A stretch of 64,000 bases of DNA from an uncultured Dehalococcoidia bacterium. Its GTDB lineage: Bacteria > Chloroflexota > Dehalococcoidia > Lucifugimonadales > UBA1127. A program made the translations under genes and the position numbers. The stretch spans positions 202,542 to 266,541 of the forward strand of contig CAZVDP010000015.1 in the NCBI GenBank assembly GCA_964625945.1, read 5' to 3'. Under the pieces are notes generated by a model that did no database searches, was not told the origin of the DNA, and saw only the letters and a program-made list of their open reading frames with translations. This document shows positions 56,204 to 60,914 of the stretch, one piece after another. Positions within the stretch are counted from its first letter, which is position 1, and each line of letters begins with the position of its first letter.

Positions 56204-57001
56204 ATGGATGATTGTGGCGGTTACCAAGACAATGAGTTCGTGCCAGAGTTCTATGACCATATTCTGGCTTATCAAGACCCCCTCAACCTAGCATTTTATA
56301 AAGGGCTAGCGAGATCAGCCGAGGGGGCGGTTTTAGAATTAGGATGCGGCACCGGCCGGTTAATGATCCCGATGGCCCCCTACTGCCAGTCAATAACTGG
56401 CCTAGATCTGTCTAGTCGTATGCTAGATATTTGCAGAAAGAAAATCCTCCAACTACCTGACGATATCCGACAAAAAATTCAATTGGTTCACGGCGACATG
56501 CGTAATTTCAATATTGATTCATCATTTTCACTAATTACTATCCCATTCTTGACTTTCATGCATCTCCTTGAGGTTGACGATCAGATTGCCTGCCTTGAAC
56601 GGGCGCATTCACATCTGACGTCAGGGGGAAAGCTAGTAGTCGACATGTTCAACCCCGATCTTCAGCGCCTCACCGATCACAGAATCGGCCAAGAGGGAGC
56701 CCGAGAGCCGCCCTTTCTCTTGCCTGACGGAAGGGAAATAGTAAGGCAATTCAGAGACGTGTCAATTGACCTACATGGCCAAATCTTACAAGCAGAAATC
56801 ATCTATAATGTCTCGCACCGGAGCGGACTGACCGAGAGATTAGTACACTCGTTTCCTTACCGCTACTTCTTCCGCTATGAGTTGGAGCATCTCTTAGCTC
56901 GATGCGGTTTTGAAGTGGAAAGTGTTTATAGCGATTTTGACGGGAGTCCATACGGTGCCGGATACCCAGGCGAATTGATTGTCTCATCCAGAAAAGTGTA
57001 A
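56204..57001 (+). CDS. Class I SAM-dependent methyltransferase
   Basis: Motif I VLELGCGTGRL, followed by GLDLS and HGDMRNF. Confidence 0.8.
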   Translation: MDDCGGYQDNEFVPEFYDHILAYQDPLNLAFYKGLARSAEGAVLELGCGTGRLMIPMAPYCQSITGLDLSSRMLDICRKKILQLPDDIRQKIQLVHGDMRNFNIDSSFSLITIPFLTFMHLLEVDDQIACLERAHSHLTSGGKLVVDMFNPDLQRLTDHRIGQEGAREPPFLLPDGREIVRQFRDVSIDLHGQILQAEIIYNVSHRSGLTERLVHSFPYRYFFRYELEHLLARCGFEVESVYSDFDGSPYGAGYPGELIVSSRKV

Positions 57002-57042: not shown

Positions 57043-59361
57043 ATGTCTACCACAACAAACATTGACAGACTCAGTTTACGAATCGGCGGAATGACGTGCG
57101 CAGCCTGCGTCTATCATGTGGAAAAGGCACTATTCGCGGTCGACGGTGTGCATACCGTCAGCGTTAACCTCGCTACTGAAAAAGCGTTAGTCGAGTTCGA
57201 TGTAAATTCTGCTTCTGTTTCACAGTTCACTCGAGCTATTGAGGATGCTGGATATTCAATACCAGAAGAACTTTCCTTCGAAGAACATGAGGCAGCTTCA
57301 AAAAGAAATCGTTTCGAGATCAAGGTTAAATGGGTTTTTAGCTTAGCTACAGCGGCCGTCATCATGTTGAGCATGTTTACTTTAGGAGTGAACCAAGCTT
57401 ATGGCTCCCAAATAAATTTCCTCTTTTGGTTCTTGGCAACTCCGGTCCAATTTTGGGCTGGAAAGCAATTTTATCAACATGCTTGGTCAGCACTCAAACG
57501 AAAGTCCTCCGATATGAACACCCTCGTCGTTATAGGAACGTCGGTGGCATATTTTTACAGTGTCGCTGCAACCCTCTTCTATAACGCGGTTTTCTTTGCC
57601 GAAGCACGGTCCTTCCACGGGCACAGCTTCTTCGATCACGGAACAGGAACTTATTTCGACATCTCTTCAACACTTATAGGACTCATTCTGTTTGGGAGAT
57701 GGCTTGAGGCCAGAGCAAAGAGCCGAACAACTAGCTCGATTCGGGAACTCATTCAAGATGAAGCGGCGATTGTGCGCGTTTCTCGTCATGATATCCAACT
57801 GGACGTCCCAGTATCTGAAATCACCCTCGAAGATGTGGTCATGATCCGTCCAGGAGAACAAGTCCCTGTCGATGGGGTCATAATTGAGGGAGCATCGGCG
57901 ATCGACGAGTCGATGCTGACCGGCGAGAGCATTCCCGTTGCAAAAGATCCGGGAGATAGGGTGTACGGTAGAACCATCAATCAGAACGGTAGTTTCTGGT
58001 TCCGTGTCACACAAGTCGGGCAAGACACCGTCATAGCACGAATACTCCGCATGGTAGAAGAGGCTCAGGGTTCCAAAGCTCCAATCCAGCGCTATGTAGA
58101 CATTGTAGCGTCCTACTTCGTTCCAGCCGTAATGCTAGTGGCAACGGCATCTTTTCTGGCTTGGTACGCTTACGGACCTCCGCCTGCTATAACATATGGG
58201 TTGCTAAGCTCAGTTGCTGTCCTAATAATCGCTTGCCCTTGCGCACTAGGCTTGGCAACGCCAACGGCAATCATGGTAGGAATGGGAAAGGGAGCAGACT
58301 ACGGAATATTGATCAGCAACGCGGAGACTCTAGAAAAGGCCAATCATGTGACAACGATTGTTCTCGACAAAACTGGAACATTGACCTATGGAAGGCCCGT
58401 CGTCACCGACATAATCGGCACAGTCAGTGACGATATTCTACTTAAGCTTGCAGCATCTGTAGAGCTCGTATCAGAACACCCTATTGGAAAAGCAATCATC
58501 GATAAAGCAGAAGCACGCGGATTAGTGGTTGACAACCCCACTAGCTTTGAAGCCTTCCCAGGTCTCGGGGTGACGGCTTATCTCAATGGTGAAGAAATCA
58601 TTGTCGGGAATAGCCGCTTGCTAGAAGTTCGTGGGATTAACTTTGCACATATGTTGCCAACTTGGGAAAAGCTTACGCTTGAGGGAAAAACCCCCGTGTT
58701 TGTCTCACGCGACAATGCCATCATAGGCATTGTCGCCGTTTCAGACACGCTGAAACCCGAAGCAGAATCAGTCGTAAACCTCCTAAAACGAACTGGACGC
58801 CAAGTTAACATCATTACCGGGGATAATTGGGGAACCGCAACCGCGTTAGCCAAACGCCTAGACATCTCAAATTACCGAGCGGAAGTACTTCCCATGGAGA
58901 AAGCTGAATTTATAAGACAACTCCAAACCGAGGGTGAAATCGTCGCTATGGTTGGCGACGGGATTAACGATGCTCCTGCGCTTGCCCAAGCAGACGTTGG
59001 AATAGCAATGAGCAACGGGACTGATATTGCTATCGAGGCGTCAACCGTCACCCTTCTGAACGGCGACCTAAAAGGTATCCATACAACCTTCAGGCTTAGC
59101 TCAGCAACACTATCCACGATCCGCTGGAACCTTTTCTGGGCTTTCGTCTACAATGTGGCACTTATTCCAATAGCAGCTGGAGTTTTGTATCCTGTTTTCC
59201 TGGAACTTGGTGGAGTGCCTTGGACACTACGCCCATTTCTAGGCGACATGGGATTCTTGAACCCCGTCCTAGCCGCTCTCGCGATGGCATTCAGTTCTGT
59301 CTCCGTCGTGAGTAATTCACTGCGATTAAGACACTTTTCTGTAACACACGATCGCCATTAA
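57043..59361 (+). CDS. copA: Copper-translocating P1B-type ATPase
   Basis: N-terminal HMA domain [20 protein letters not shown] motif ([13 protein letters not shown]), [15 protein letters not shown]. Confidence 0.93.
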
Positions 59362-59373
59362 AGGAGGTGCGCC

Positions 59374-59586
59374 TTGATCGGAAGAATCATAGGATTGATA
59401 CACCAAAAAGAGAGAGCAGAGGATCCTGTTTGCCACATGCTCGTTGATCCAAGCAAGCCTCCCGGAGGATCTTATACTTATCAAGACAACACCTACTATT
59501 TTTGCGGCGCTGGATGTCGAGTAGCCTTCTCCAAAGAACCCGATTCTTACCTTTCTGGCGAAAAGCGTATCGATATGGGAAGTTAA
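59374..59586 (+). CDS. YHS/TRASH-domain metal-binding protein
   Basis: 70 aa. DPVCHMLVD...YYFCGAGCRVAF fits the YHS/TRASH pattern. 12-nt gap after copA. Confidence 0.75.
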   Translation: MIGRIIGLIHQKERAEDPVCHMLVDPSKPPGGSYTYQDNTYYFCGAGCRVAFSKEPDSYLSGEKRIDMGS

Positions 59587-59685
59587 CGATTATATGCCAG
59601 TAAGTCGCGAGTAACGATCCACGCACGGTCATCCCCAACAAACTGATGGGTTTACGGAACCGATCGGTGCGGGTACACTAAGCCA

Positions 59686-59943
59686 TTGGTATCGATGAGA
59701 GGTGTTAATTTGGCTGAGCCCACCACGCTAACTATCTACACCCATCCTGAATGCGACTACTCCCAAGCGGCAAAAGCTGATATGGAGCGTGACGGCATCC
59801 CTTTTACTGAAATTGATGTAACTGTGTCGCCAGGCGCCATTGCTGAACTTGAACGACTGACGGGCGGTGAACGAATCACTCCAGTGATCGTTGAAGGAGA
59901 ATTGGTAACGGTAGGCTATGGCGGCGTAGGCTGAGGCTTCTAG
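59686..59943 (+). CDS. Glutaredoxin-like selenoprotein candidate ending U-G-F-stop (Uxx-star type); TGA 59932-59934 read as Sec
   Basis: Grx/NrdH-like fold with a CxxS motif (IYTHPECDYS), IPFTEIDV and TPVIVEGELVTVGYGG. In-frame TGA, then GGC TTC TAG. A SECIS-like hairpin starts 1 nt after the TAG. The start is uncertain (TTG 59686, ATG 59695, or TTG 59710 after AGAGGTG). Confidence 0.72.
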
Positions 59944-59944
59944 C

Positions 59945-59961
59945 CAGAGCCGTCGGCTCTG
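59945..59961 (+). promoter_or_regulatory. SECIS-like stem-loop for the Uxx-star gene
   Basis: Perfect 7-bp stem CAGAGCC/GGCTCTG with apical GUC. The loop G (59952) is 20 nt downstream of the U of UGA (59932). Confidence 0.6.
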
Positions 59962-60090
59962 CGCACTCACCATCAAATCCATAAAAGGACGTTCAGGAAG
60001 GATTTTAGAACTCTCATATAAAAGGATAGAAGACTTCACGTCGTTCTATATGACGCTAGTATCGAGATAACGTAGTTTTCAGGAGCAAGC

Positions 60091-60798
60091 ATGAGTATAA
60101 ATCAGCAGAAAGGATTAGTCATAGGCGACCGCTTAGAAGGGATCATTCTCCCTATGCTAGATCAAGGCACAGTTAACATTGACGACTATCGGGGCAAACG
60201 ATTGATCCTCTTCATGTGGGGCTCTTGGTGAGCATGCCGTGAACAACTGCCAGTATGGCAGGATTATTACAGCCGCCTTCGAGAACATAACATTGACATC
60301 CTATCTGTAGCCGTCGACGCACAAGGGCCCGTCCTTGCTCGCCCCTATGTCGAGATGGCTGGGTTACAGTTCCCTACCGTCATCGACTCGGAAAATACCC
60401 TAGGGCATATGTTCAACTTTAAGGCCATCCCGAACGTTGTCCTCATCGATCCTTCCGGTGTGATACGGTATATCCGGCGCGGGTTCGATATCAGAAAGCC
60501 AGAGTTCGCGGAAATTGTAGAGAACTGGGCACAAGGCGATTCTGAACCAAGCGATCGACTGGATCACCAGGACGCGACAGTGACAGCTGAGGCAATGGAA
60601 CATTTTAGAGAGGGACTAGCTCTGTATCAAGATAACAAACCAGAAGAAGCCATAGCTGCTTGGAGACGCGGTGTCGCTATTGAACCGGATAACTATATAA
60701 TCAGGAAACAAATTTGGGCAGTTGAGAATCCCGATCGGTTTTATGACGGCCCAGTGGACTATGCATGGCAGAAGGAACAGTTGGACAAAGGGCGATAA
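60091..60798 (+). CDS. TlpA/redoxin-like thioredoxin-fold selenoprotein candidate with C-terminal TPR-like tail; TGA 60229-60231 read as Sec
   Basis: ATG 60091 lies 5 nt after AGGAG (60081-60085). One frame is open from 60091 to 60798 apart from a single TGA. The product reads ...DDYRGKRLILFMWGSW-U-ACREQLP...AIPNVVLIDPSGVIRYI..., then EAMEHFREGLALYQDNKPEEAIAAWRRGVAIEPDN. The track shows only the part from ATG 60355. Confidence 0.75.
60247..60261 (+). promoter_or_regulatory. SECIS-like stem-loop inside the TlpA-like gene
   Basis: Perfect 6-bp stem CTGCCA/TGGCAG with apical GUA. The loop G (60253) is 24 nt downstream of the U of UGA (60229). Confidence 0.55.
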
Positions 60799-60837
60799 CC
60801 TCTCCAACTGGAAAAAGACTTAACGTGTGGAATACAC

Positions 60838-60914
60838 GGCCCGGTGGTGTAGTGGCCTAACATACTGCCCTGTCACGGCAGAGATCGGGGGTTCGAATCC
60901 CCTCCGGGTCGCCA
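60838..60914 (+). tRNA. tRNA-Asp (anticodon GUC), CCA encoded
   Basis: 77 nt folded by hand. Acceptor GGCCCGG/CCGGGTC (one G-U pair), D stem GTGT/ACAT, anticodon stem CTGCC/GGCAG with loop CT-GTC-AC, T arm GGGGG-TTCGAAT-CCCCT, discriminator G, CCA. Confidence 0.93.

What the first reader, a model, noticed from the sequence alone, without database searches (positions are those of the whole stretch)
57043..60914. Co-directional copA - YHS - Sec-Grx-like - Sec-TlpA-like cluster: candidate selenium-dependent thiol/copper redox module
Four same-strand genes lie in a row. They are a Cu(I) P1B-ATPase, a YHS/TRASH metal-binding protein (12-nt gap), and then two small thiol-redox proteins that both appear to use selenocysteine (gaps of about 100 and 147 nt).

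TlpA-type reductases are known to keep copper-chaperone and Cu-site cysteines reduced. Grx-like proteins can deliver the electrons.

I am not aware of a described pairing of two Sec-containing Trx-fold proteins beside a copper exporter. Two independent UGA recodings within 300 nt of each other argue against a chance stop codon or a sequencing error.
Basis: inference. Interest (0 to 1): 0.75.

Follow-up and report, generated by a model that had tools for sequence, protein, structure and literature searches.

The report
Two selenoproteins tied to copper export
Two small selenium-containing redox proteins sit just after a copper-export pump gene, and both are found next to copper-export operons in many related marine Chloroflexota, which suggests an untested role for selenocysteine in handling copper stress.

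Summary
copA (57043-59361), a YHS/TRASH gene (59374-59586), a UXX-star family 2 glutaredoxin-like gene (59695-59943, UGA at 59932) and a ResA/TlpA-fold gene with a C-terminal helical domain (60091-60798, UGA at 60229) lie on one strand, with gaps of 12, 108 and 147 nt.

Both UGAs are real Sec codons. The TlpA-like UGA is conserved in 80/80 related genomes, and the UXX-star UGA in 34 of 36. Both are followed by hairpins that show compensatory changes, and Cys homologues exist for both.

UXX-star sits directly upstream of the TlpA-like gene in 36/80 species. copA, usually csoR-copA, lies upstream in 21/80, with none downstream. In metagenomes the top neighbours of UXX-star are the TlpA-like gene, YHS and copA, and some csoR-copA-YHS-UXX-star operons lack the TlpA-like gene.

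Both selenoproteins lack signal peptides. The "TlpA-like" motif is U-x-C, not CxxC, so it is not a TlpA/ResA member.

Both families were already catalogued. The link to the copper operon is not in any literature I could search, but the key 2025 paper was not readable. The function is inferred: most likely a cytoplasmic selenol/thiol relay that protects or services the copper-export path.

The parts
57043..59361 (+). copA, a Cu(I)-exporting P1B-1 ATPase (772 aa) with one N-terminal HMA domain (GMTCAAC)
   Evidence: TIGR01511 scores 571 bits (cut-off 397) and TIGR01525 scores 609. PF00403, PF00122 and PF00702 all hit. The motifs CPC, YN, MxxSS and DKTGT can be read directly in the translation.
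59374..59586 (+). Small YHS/TRASH-type metal-binding protein (70 aa; Cys pattern C-x23-C-x3-C), 12 nt after copA
   Evidence: PF04945 scores 33.3 bits (cut-off 30.3). The same gene follows copA in L001, L003-5, L017, L081, L082, L089, L111 and L164-166.
59695..59943 (+). UXX-star family 2 glutaredoxin-like selenoprotein. The active site is C-D-Y-S and the tail is G-V-G-U-G-F-stop. UGA is at 59932-59934 and the TAG stop at 59941-59943.
   Evidence: NF041211 scores 113.3 bits (cut-off 100) and PF00462 scores 39.5. The tail G-x-G-U-x-x-stop is conserved in 34 genome loci, and L067 and L080 carry Cys homologues (GIGCSFYE-stop).
59945..59961 (+). SECIS hairpin of the UXX-star gene (CAGAGCCG / CGGCTCTG, apical G-U). 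It lies entirely after the stop codon.
   Evidence: The inverted repeat is 8+8 nt and 100% complementary. In 35 aligned homologues the stem has 6 pairs, 5 of them with compensatory changes.
60091..60798 (+). Cytoplasmic ResA/TlpA-fold selenoprotein (235 aa). It has a W-G-S-W-U-A-C motif (UGA 60229-60231) and a conserved C-terminal helical/TPR domain ending in IRKQIWAxExPxxFYxGxxDxxWQ.
   Evidence: PF00578 scores 59 bits and PF08534 scores 47. NF041054 scores 126 bits, below its cut-off of 300. ResA gives E about 1e-13 with a one-residue gap in the CxxC. The AF2 model of homologue P0006 has pLDDT 89 and pTM 0.86, and Foldseek matches the Trx domain only. The TGA is at the same site in 80/80 loci.
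60247..60261 (+). SECIS hairpin of the TlpA-like gene (CUGCCA-GUA-UGGCAG), 18 nt after the UGA and inside the codons for L-P-V-W-Q
   Evidence: In the 78-sequence alignment, pair 19-33 is CG 65 / UA 7 / UG 6 with none broken. Loop-closing pair 24-27, made of two synonymous third codon positions, is GC 23 / UA 20 / AU 13 / CG 9. The covariation score is 0.209 against 0.064 in shuffles.

Best explanation
The two selenoprotein genes form an accessory module of a copper-export operon. In the window's own clade the full set is (csoR)-copA-YHS-UXXstar-TlpAlike.

Both selenoproteins are cytoplasmic thioredoxin-fold proteins.
- One is a Grx-like protein with a single active-site Cys (C-x-x-S) and a mobile C-terminal G-U-x-x tail.
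- The other has a ResA-like fold with a U-x-C centre and a conserved helical partner-binding domain.

I propose that they act as a selenol/thiol exchange relay that is made together with CopA when copper rises. In this model they reduce, or strip copper from, cysteines that Cu(I)/Cu(II) chemistry has oxidised or bridged. Their first targets would be the Cys ligands of the export path itself: the CopA HMA CxxC and the YHS/TRASH cysteines.

What is shown:
- gene order;
- Sec decoding;
- the folds;
- the absence of export signals;
- recurrent linkage of each selenoprotein to the other and, separately, to csoR-copA(-YHS).

What is inferred:
- co-transcription;
- induction by copper;
- the direction of electron flow;
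- the identity of the substrates.
For: Sec decoding is supported as follows.
- The TGA is conserved in 80/80 TlpA-like loci and in 34/36 UXX-star genes next to them; the other two carry Cys.
- Both SECIS hairpins covary.
- Wider relatives carry C-x-C where this protein has U-x-C.

Linkage seen from the TlpA-like side (80 species genomes):
- UXX-star lies directly upstream on the same strand in 36 loci.
- copA lies upstream in 21 loci, and a PF02583 CsoR repressor precedes copA in 15 of them.
- There are 21 copA genes in 667 kb of upstream flank and none in 698 kb of downstream flank.

Linkage seen from the UXX-star side (80 metagenome loci):
- 24 of 62 loci have the TlpA-like gene just downstream.
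- 15 of 59 loci have YHS/copA just upstream.
- The three commonest real neighbours are the TlpA-like gene (23 loci), YHS (12) and copA (12).

Other points:
- Operons of the form csoR-copA-YHS-UXXstar exist without the TlpA-like gene (L089, L111; L164-166 with recQ inserted).
- Operons of the form csoR-copA-TlpAlike exist without UXX-star (L022, L031, L055, L071).
- The linkage survives insertions of unrelated genes.
- The nearest relatives L081 and L082 (96% and 93% identity) keep the window's arrangement.
- The family has no N-terminal signal or anchor.
- No promoter-like or terminator-like site lies in the three intergenic gaps on the + strand.
- P0294 fuses a C-Y-C family member to a second AhpC/TSA CxxC domain, which fits a relay between two Trx-fold proteins.

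Precedents:
- TlpA forms mixed disulfides with the copper chaperone ScoI and with CoxB (PDB 4txo, 4txv).
- Copper induces the Scs Trx-fold proteins, which both bind Cu+ and act as oxidoreductases (PMC10907172).
- GRX1 acts on the metal-binding domains of ATP7A/B (PMC3750203).
Against: - No expression or biochemical data exist.
- 59 of 80 TlpA-like loci have no copA within 10 kb, and about 27 have neither copA nor UXX-star.
- The contexts follow clades of the TlpA-like tree. Part of the signal is therefore shared ancestry, not independent events.
- The window itself has no csoR. A SAM methyltransferase sits 41 nt upstream of copA, and I saw no operator-like palindrome there.
- Dehalococcoidia carry about 45-50 selenoproteins (PMC13326102), so two neighbouring selenoprotein genes are less remarkable there than elsewhere.
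- No reductant, such as a thioredoxin reductase, is encoded nearby.
Confidence: 0.5

Rival explanations
1. The selenoproteins are copper carriers, not redox enzymes. The selenolate of U-x-C, and/or the Cys plus C-terminal Sec of UXX-star, binds Cu(I) directly and hands it to or takes it from the YHS protein or the CopA HMA domain. They would act as CopZ-like chaperones of very high affinity.
For: - Most csoR-copA loci that contain these genes have no separate CopZ. Only L018 and L022 show an extra HMA protein.
- Among copA-linked genome loci, YHS and UXX-star co-occur: both present in 6 loci, neither in 14, YHS alone in 2, UXX-star alone in 0.
- C-x-C / U-x-C spacing is unusual for Trx-fold reductases. 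It is known in Cu(I) sites such as Cox11 CFCF, the CCS CxC and metallothioneins (my own knowledge).
- The review PMC13188914 says UXX-star Sec residues may serve as metal ligands.
- ScsC and ScsB bind and transfer Cu+ (PMC10907172).
Against: - Most family members are not next to any copper gene.
- The Trx domain has no conserved His or Met to complete a copper site.
- The P0294 fusion to a CxxC AhpC/TSA domain points to redox chemistry.
- No binding data exist.
Confidence: 0.2
2. The pair is a general cytoplasmic redox or peroxide-defence couple, with a Prx-like selenoenzyme recycled by a Grx-like selenoprotein. It has no specific tie to copper, and its position beside copA is inherited gene order in one part of the Dehalococcoidia.
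For: - The best Pfam hit of the second protein is AhpC/TSA (59 bits), and it was first catalogued as 'Prx-like (UGC-containing)' (PMC2398784).
- The UXX-star/TlpA-like pair is the commonest arrangement, and most pairs lie far from copA.
- The copA-linked loci cluster in the tree.
Against: - Each selenoprotein is linked to csoR-copA on its own when the other is absent.
- The linkage persists through varied insertions and changing outer flanks.
- copA counts are 21 upstream and 0 downstream.
- The peroxiredoxin P-x-x-x-T/S-x-x-C motif is absent. The sequence reads L-F-M-W-G-S-W-U, which is the ResA/TlpA type.
Confidence: 0.25
3. One or both TGAs are ordinary stops or errors. On this reading the Grx-like protein simply ends at ...GVG, and the TlpA-like gene is a pseudogene or two separate ORFs.
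For: Public gene callers treat them this way. Nearly all database entries are cut at the UGA.
Against: - The TGA is at the same codon in 80/80 species, with protein conservation on both sides.
- The x-x-stop after the UXX-star TGA is conserved, and Cys homologues exist.
- Both downstream hairpins show compensatory changes.
- NF041211 is met above its cut-off.
Confidence: 0.02

Closest known systems
UXX-star (seleno)protein family 2 (NCBIfam NF041211; Haft & Tolstoy 2025, as listed in PMC13188914)
   Same: The Grx-like gene is a member. It scores above the cut-off, has a Grx fold, and carries Sec three residues from the C-terminus.
   Different: Nothing differs at the protein level. I could not confirm from readable literature that its recurrent position after csoR-copA-YHS and before the U-x-C protein has been described.
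'Prx-like (UGC-containing)' selenoproteins of the GOS survey (PMC2398784), 'UGC-containing TlpA family' (PMC13188914), and NCBIfam NF041054 ResA-like WAxxUGC
   Same: It has the same W-[AG]-x-x-U-x-C motif on an AhpC/TSA-type Trx fold.
   Different: It scores 126 bits against the NF041054 cut-off of 300. It lacks that model's first 86 positions. It carries its own C-terminal helical domain, and the middle residue of the motif is A, G, V or S.
TlpA / ResA / CcmG extracytoplasmic thiol-disulfide reductases (e.g. TlpA-ScoI and TlpA-CoxB complexes, PDB 4txo and 4txv)
   Same: The fold matches (Foldseek TM about 0.83 over roughly 140 residues to DsbE/ResA). There is a thematic link between a Trx-fold reductase and copper-site cysteines.
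   Different: It is cytoplasmic, with no signal peptide or anchor. It has U-x-C, not C-x-x-C. It carries an extra C-terminal domain. All ResA/TlpA model cut-offs are missed.
Scs (suppressor of copper sensitivity) system of Salmonella, Proteus and Caulobacter (PMC10907172, PMC5524982)
   Same: Several Trx-fold proteins, one of them TlpA/DsbE-like, are encoded together and tied to copper stress. Redox activity and Cu+ binding are combined in that system.
   Different: Scs is periplasmic, uses CxxC, depends on Cpx and on the membrane protein ScsB, and contains no selenium. There is no homology beyond the fold.
GRX1 acting on the N-terminal metal-binding domains of ATP7A/ATP7B (PMC3750203, citing Lim 2006 and Singleton 2010)
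   Same: A cytoplasmic glutaredoxin services the CxxC domains of a Cu(I) P1B ATPase.
   Different: That system is eukaryotic, depends on glutathione, contains no Sec, and involves no gene clustering.
CopM (TRASH-domain) with CopA in Sulfolobus cop clusters, and the C-terminal GCUG tail of mammalian thioredoxin reductase (my own knowledge, not checked here)
   Same: A small TRASH/YHS protein sits next to copA. A mobile C-terminal Sec acts as a shuttle between a buried redox centre and its substrates.
   Different: These are analogies only. No homology was tested.

Membership tests
UXX-star (seleno)protein family 2 (NF041211) | HMM score at or above the curated cut-off | tested here: met
   113.3 bits against a cut-off of 100.
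UXX-star (seleno)protein family 2 (NF041211) | UGA followed by two sense codons and a stop; Grx fold | tested here: met
   G-U-G-F-stop. PF00462 scores 39.5 bits. The same tail is present in 34 homologues.
Bacterial selenoprotein genes (both genes) | SECIS hairpin shortly after the UGA, maintained by selection | tested here: met
   Both hairpins show compensatory changes. No Rfam family reached its gathering score here, so the evidence is my own alignments.
Bacterial selenoprotein genes (both genes) | Cys-containing homologues aligned at the UGA | tested here: met
   For UXX-star, L067 and L080 read GIGC. For the TlpA-like protein, P0270 has CIC, P0300 has CHC, P0294 has CYC and P0249 has CGC.
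Bacterial selenoprotein genes (both genes) | The genome encodes selA, selB, selD and tRNA-Sec | not testable with these tools
   None of these is in the 64 kb window. The rest of the genome is not available.
TlpA/ResA/CcmG thiol-disulfide oxidoreductases | Trx fold of the ResA/DsbE type | tested here: met
   Foldseek gives TMt 0.83-0.85 to 3gl3, 1st9 and 4nmu. phmmer against ResA gives E about 1e-13.
TlpA/ResA/CcmG thiol-disulfide oxidoreductases | W-C-x-x-C active site | tested here: not met
   The site is W-U-A-C. HMMER has to open a one-residue gap against ResA WCEPC. U-x-C is found in all 80 loci.
TlpA/ResA/CcmG thiol-disulfide oxidoreductases | Extracytoplasmic location (signal peptide or membrane anchor) | tested here: not met
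   There is a stop 18 nt upstream of the ATG and an RBS at 60081. Sec is residue 47. The modal distance from start to Sec across loci is 46 codons, and no hydrophobic stretch lies upstream.
TlpA/ResA/CcmG thiol-disulfide oxidoreductases | NCBIfam ResA, TlpA or DsbE model cut-offs | tested here: not met
   ResA scores 70 against 170, TlpA 32 against 230, and DsbE 24 against 123.
ResA-like WAxxUGC protein (NF041054) | HMM cut-off and full-length architecture (354 positions) | tested here: not met
   126 bits against a cut-off of 300. Only profile positions 87-194 are matched by the best stretch.
Peroxiredoxin (AhpC/TSA) | P-x-x-x-T/S-x-x-C(U) peroxidatic motif | tested here: not met
   The sequence before U is L-I-L-F-M-W-G-S-W, with no Pro at -7 and no Thr/Ser at -3. 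The Pfam domain PF00578 itself is matched at 59 bits.
Cu(I) P1B-1 ATPase CopA | TIGR01511 cut-off; CPC, YN and MxxSS transmembrane motifs; HMA CxxC domain | tested here: met
   571 bits against a cut-off of 397. The motifs were read in the translation. PF00403 scores 63.7 bits.
CsoR-regulated cop operon | csoR (PF02583, with C...H-x-x-x-C ligands) adjacent to copA | tested here: not met
   No csoR is present in the window. It is present directly upstream of copA in 15 related genome loci and in L089, L111 and L164-166.
Scs copper-sensitivity suppressor system | Periplasmic CxxC proteins in an scsABCD operon with the membrane reductase ScsB | tested here: not met
   The proteins here are cytoplasmic. 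No ScsB/DsbD-like gene is among the neighbours.

The most novel reading that the evidence does not exclude
Selenocysteine is used here as a direct Cu(I) ligand. On this reading the U-x-C protein and the C-terminal Sec of UXX-star form a CsoR-controlled, selenium-based copper relay with the YHS protein and CopA. This would be the first selenoprotein metallochaperones for copper, and they would couple selenium and copper economies in abundant deep-ocean SAR202 bacteria.
Probability: 0.2. Interest if true: 0.85.

Novelty: new variant of a known kind. Interest (0 to 1): 0.6.

Why it matters
Copper toxicity in the cytoplasm is largely thiol chemistry. All known bacterial helpers of Cu(I) export (CopZ, CupA, CsoR) use cysteine.

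The operon described here adds two selenocysteine proteins to the export genes. It recurs in many uncultured marine Chloroflexota, a selenoprotein-rich group that is abundant in the dark ocean.

If the link is functional, three things follow.
- Two orphan selenoprotein families, one catalogued since 2008, would get a first physiological context.
- It would be a cytoplasmic, selenium-based counterpart of the periplasmic Scs and TlpA systems.
- It would yield a directly testable case of Sec being chosen over Cys for metal stress.

There is also a practical point. Almost every public protein entry for the second family is truncated at the UGA or mistranslated with Trp there.

Tried and rejected
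- **Rfam at gathering thresholds.** It found only the tRNA and no curated SECIS model. I relied on my own alignments for the SECIS evidence.
- **Single-sequence folding.** The z-scores were weak to moderate (-2.7 and -1.2). The case for the hairpins rests on covariation.
- **Promoter and terminator scan.** Nothing turned up in the intergenic gaps. It is uninformative for a Chloroflexota genome.
- **csoR, copZ or an operator palindrome in the window.** None was found.
- **AlphaFold of the window protein with U replaced by C.** I modelled homologue P0006, which has Trp at the Sec position, so the active-site geometry cannot be read from the model. Coordinates are not returned, so I could not inspect how the domains pack.
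- **Foldseek on the C-terminal domain.** No informative match.
- **Fusions of UXX-star to metal domains.** None was found. All 105 hits are 45-122 aa.
- **Peroxiredoxin reading.** Rejected because the motif does not fit (see the membership test).
- **Other neighbours.** DEAD helicase, SDR, amidohydrolases, RidA and 2-hydroxyacid dehydrogenase recur only within sub-lineages and share no theme.
- **Further in-frame-TGA genes in the window.** The scan gave no convincing candidate other than 60229.
- **Literature.** Searches for a selenoprotein/CopA/YHS/CsoR/SAR202 link returned nothing relevant. Haft & Tolstoy 2025 could not be opened.

Full report
**1. What is in the window**

Four genes run on the + strand.

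- copA spans 57043-59361 (772 aa). It passes the copper-ATPase model TIGR01511 (571 bits, cut-off 397). It has one N-terminal HMA domain and the CPC, YN, MxxSS and DKTGT motifs, which can be read directly in the translation.
- Twelve bases later comes a 70-aa YHS/TRASH protein (59374-59586; PF04945, 33.3 bits against 30.3).
- After 108 nt comes a glutaredoxin-like gene (ATG 59695). Its frame reads ...V-G-Y-G-G-V-G-UGA-G-F-TAG.
- After another 147 nt comes a 235-codon frame (60091-60798) with a UGA at 60229 inside W-G-S-W-U-A-C-R.
- A tRNA-Asp(GTC) at 60838-60914 closes the interval and explains the finding's end coordinate.
- Upstream of copA, 41 nt away, lies a SAM-dependent methyltransferase (56204-57001).
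- Downstream on the other strand lie an FAA-hydrolase-family gene and an MFS transporter gene.

**2. Are the two UGAs selenocysteine codons?**

Yes, on four independent grounds.

- *Family models.* The first protein exceeds the curated cut-off of NCBIfam NF041211, "UXX-star (seleno)protein family 2" (113.3 against 100).
- *Conservation of the TGA.* A scan of one genome per species found 162 relatives of the second protein. In the 80 best loci (43-60% identity, all Chloroflexota, mostly Dehalococcoidia/SAR202) the TGA sits at the same codon in every one. The protein is well conserved on both sides, and the motif is W-A-S-W-U-[A/G/V/S]-C-R. Of the 36 UXX-star genes next to them, 34 end G-x-G-U-x-[F/M/Y]-stop. 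Two (L067, L080) have Cys there and a CxxC active site in place of CxxS.
- *RNA structure of the second gene.* The ungapped 78-sequence alignment has a hairpin 18 nt after the UGA. Stem pair 19-33 is CG 65 / UA 7 / UG 6 and never broken. Positions 24 and 27 are the third bases of a Pro codon and a Val/Gly codon, so they are free at the protein level. They co-vary through all four Watson-Crick types (GC 23, UA 20, AU 13, CG 9). No shuffle of 500 reached the observed covariation score.
- *RNA structure of the UXX-star gene.* Its hairpin has six pairs, five of them with compensatory changes. It lies wholly after the stop codon.
- *Cys forms in wider relatives.* Relatives of the second protein carry C-I-C, C-H-C, C-Y-C or C-G-C at the same place.

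The Sec-insertion machinery itself is not in the window and could not be checked.

**3. What the proteins are**

The second protein is ResA/TlpA-like in fold only.

- phmmer finds ResA at E about 1e-13 but must delete one residue from the CxxC.
- An AlphaFold model of a 54%-identical homologue is confident (pLDDT 89, pTM 0.86). It shows a Trx domain (residues 1-147), a short linker and a helical domain (164-233).
- Foldseek matches only the Trx domain, to DsbE, ResA and TlpA, including the TlpA-ScoI and TlpA-CoxB complexes.
- The C-terminal domain ends in the near-invariant IRKQIWAxExPxxFYxGxxDxxWQ. It is kept even in relatives that have lost both redox residues, so it probably binds a partner.
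- No room or hydrophobic segment for a signal peptide or anchor exists. Sec is residue 47, and the modal start-to-Sec distance across loci is 46 codons.
- The peroxiredoxin active-site motif is absent.

The protein is therefore a cytoplasmic U-x-C member of the group catalogued in 2008 as "Prx-like (UGC-containing)" (PMC2398784). It falls below the cut-off of the nearest NCBIfam model, NF041054 (126 against 300).

The UXX-star protein is a minimal Grx fold with C-x-x-S and a glycine-rich tail bearing Sec. In glutaredoxins the loop after the last strand lines the active site (established knowledge of the fold). A Cys-Sec selenenylsulfide is therefore plausible, but it has not been shown.

**4. 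Is the neighbourhood conserved?**

*From the TlpA-like side (80 species):*
- UXX-star lies directly upstream on the same strand in 36 loci.
- copA lies upstream in 21 loci.
- In 15 of those, copA is preceded by an 88-aa PF02583 CsoR-type repressor with the C...H-x-x-x-C copper ligands.
- As an internal control, the 667 kb of upstream flank holds 21 copA genes and the 698 kb of downstream flank holds none.
- The architectures vary:
  - csoR-copA-TlpAlike directly adjacent (L022, L031, L055, L071);
  - the same with toxin-antitoxin-like or other genes inserted (L018, L021, L024, L036, L048 and others);
  - csoR-copA-YHS-x-UXXstar-TlpAlike (L003-5, L017);
  - copA, then two unrelated genes, then YHS-UXXstar-TlpAlike in the closest genome, L001;
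  - divergent YHS-copA <> TlpAlike (L040, L041).

*From the UXX-star side (80 metagenome loci):*
- 24 of 62 loci with enough downstream sequence have the TlpA-like gene next.
- 15 of 59 loci with enough upstream sequence have YHS/copA next.
- These are the three commonest genuine neighbours.
- L089 and L111 are csoR-copA-YHS-UXXstar with no TlpA-like gene within 4-6 kb.
- L164-166, with independent gene calls and Pfam labels, are CsoR-CopA-YHS-RecQ-UXXstar.
- L081 and L082 (96% and 93% identity) repeat the window's order.

Each selenoprotein is thus linked to the other and, independently, to the copper operon.

*Caveats:*
- The contexts follow clades of the TlpA-like tree.
- 59 of 80 loci have no copA nearby.
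- The window lacks csoR.

**5. How it most likely works**

The best-supported reading (about 0.5) is a cytoplasmic selenol/thiol exchange relay. It would be expressed with CopA and would keep the cysteine ligands of the export path, and perhaps other copper-damaged thiols, reduced and copper-free.

The folds, the location and the linkage are shown. Co-transcription, copper induction, electron flow and substrates are inferred.

There are three precedents for the logic:
- TlpA with ScoI/CoxB (PDB 4txo, 4txv);
- the copper-induced Scs proteins, which both bind Cu+ and act as oxidoreductases (PMC10907172);
- GRX1 acting on ATP7A/B (PMC3750203).

One relative fuses the C-x-C protein to a second CxxC AhpC/TSA domain (P0294). 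That fits a two-protein Trx-fold relay.

The rivals are:
- direct Cu(I) chaperoning by Sec (0.2). This is favoured by the scarcity of CopZ in these operons, by the co-occurrence of YHS with UXX-star, and by the copper-like C-x-C spacing;
- a general redox or peroxide couple whose position is inherited (0.25);
- artefact (0.02).

**6. Novelty**

Both protein families are already in catalogues. UXX-star family 2 was defined by Haft & Tolstoy 2025 (cited in PMC13188914), and that review already suggests metal-ligand roles for UXX-star Sec.

I found no paper in the searchable library that links either family to CsoR, CopA or YHS. I could not open the 2025 paper, so prior description of the neighbourhood cannot be excluded.

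I rate it a new variant of a known kind, namely Trx-fold helpers of copper homeostasis that are here cytoplasmic and selenium-dependent. Interest is 0.6.

Noticed in passing
window 60838-60914: A tRNA-Asp(GTC) lies 40 nt after the TlpA-like stop codon. It probably marks the end of the transcription unit.
   Followed up: partly
L072:10115-10123 (Dehalococcoidia MAG CBDCXW010000001.1): The motif reads W-U-G-U-R. A second TGA replaces the Cys codon of U-x-C. This is either a double-Sec centre or a long-read assembly error.
   Followed up: no
window 59945-59961, and alignment A3: The SECIS of the UXX-star gene lies entirely downstream of the stop codon, in the intergenic spacer before the next gene. 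That is unusual for bacteria, where the SECIS normally lies in coding sequence.
   Followed up: partly
alignment A2, columns 24 and 27 (window 60252 and 60255): Two synonymous third-codon positions in the apical loop of the TlpA-like SECIS co-vary through all four Watson-Crick pairs. This gives N-G-K-N' loops such as GGUC. The window's own copy is A.A and probably closes with A24-U28.
   Followed up: partly
P0270, P0300, P0294, P0249, P0228, P0256: The wider family includes several variants:
- Cys forms with C-x-C;
- a fusion to a second AhpC/TSA CxxC domain (P0294);
- secreted long forms with an extra N-terminal domain (P0249, P0306);
- forms that have lost both redox residues but keep the C-terminal IRKQIWA...WQ domain.
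   Followed up: partly
genome loci L001-L080 with copA: Within copA-linked loci, YHS and UXX-star tend to be present or absent together: both in 6 loci, neither in 14, YHS only in 2, UXX-star only in 0. This hints that the YHS protein is the partner of UXX-star. The counts are not corrected for phylogeny.
   Followed up: partly
window 56204-57001: A SAM-dependent methyltransferase (PF13649) ends 41 nt before copA, in the place where relatives carry csoR. No csoR, copZ or operator-like palindrome is present in the window.
   Followed up: partly
L021, L036, L048, about 0.3-1.1 kb upstream of the TlpA-like gene: Small toxin-antitoxin-like gene pairs are inserted between copA and the TlpA-like gene. 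I judged this by eye from six-frame translations, as HicAB/HigBA-like. The insertions do not break the linkage.
   Followed up: no
database entries P0001-P0120: Nearly all public protein predictions for the TlpA-like family start after the UGA or stop at it. A few carry Trp at the Sec position because TGA was translated with another genetic code. The family is therefore systematically mis-annotated.
   Followed up: yes
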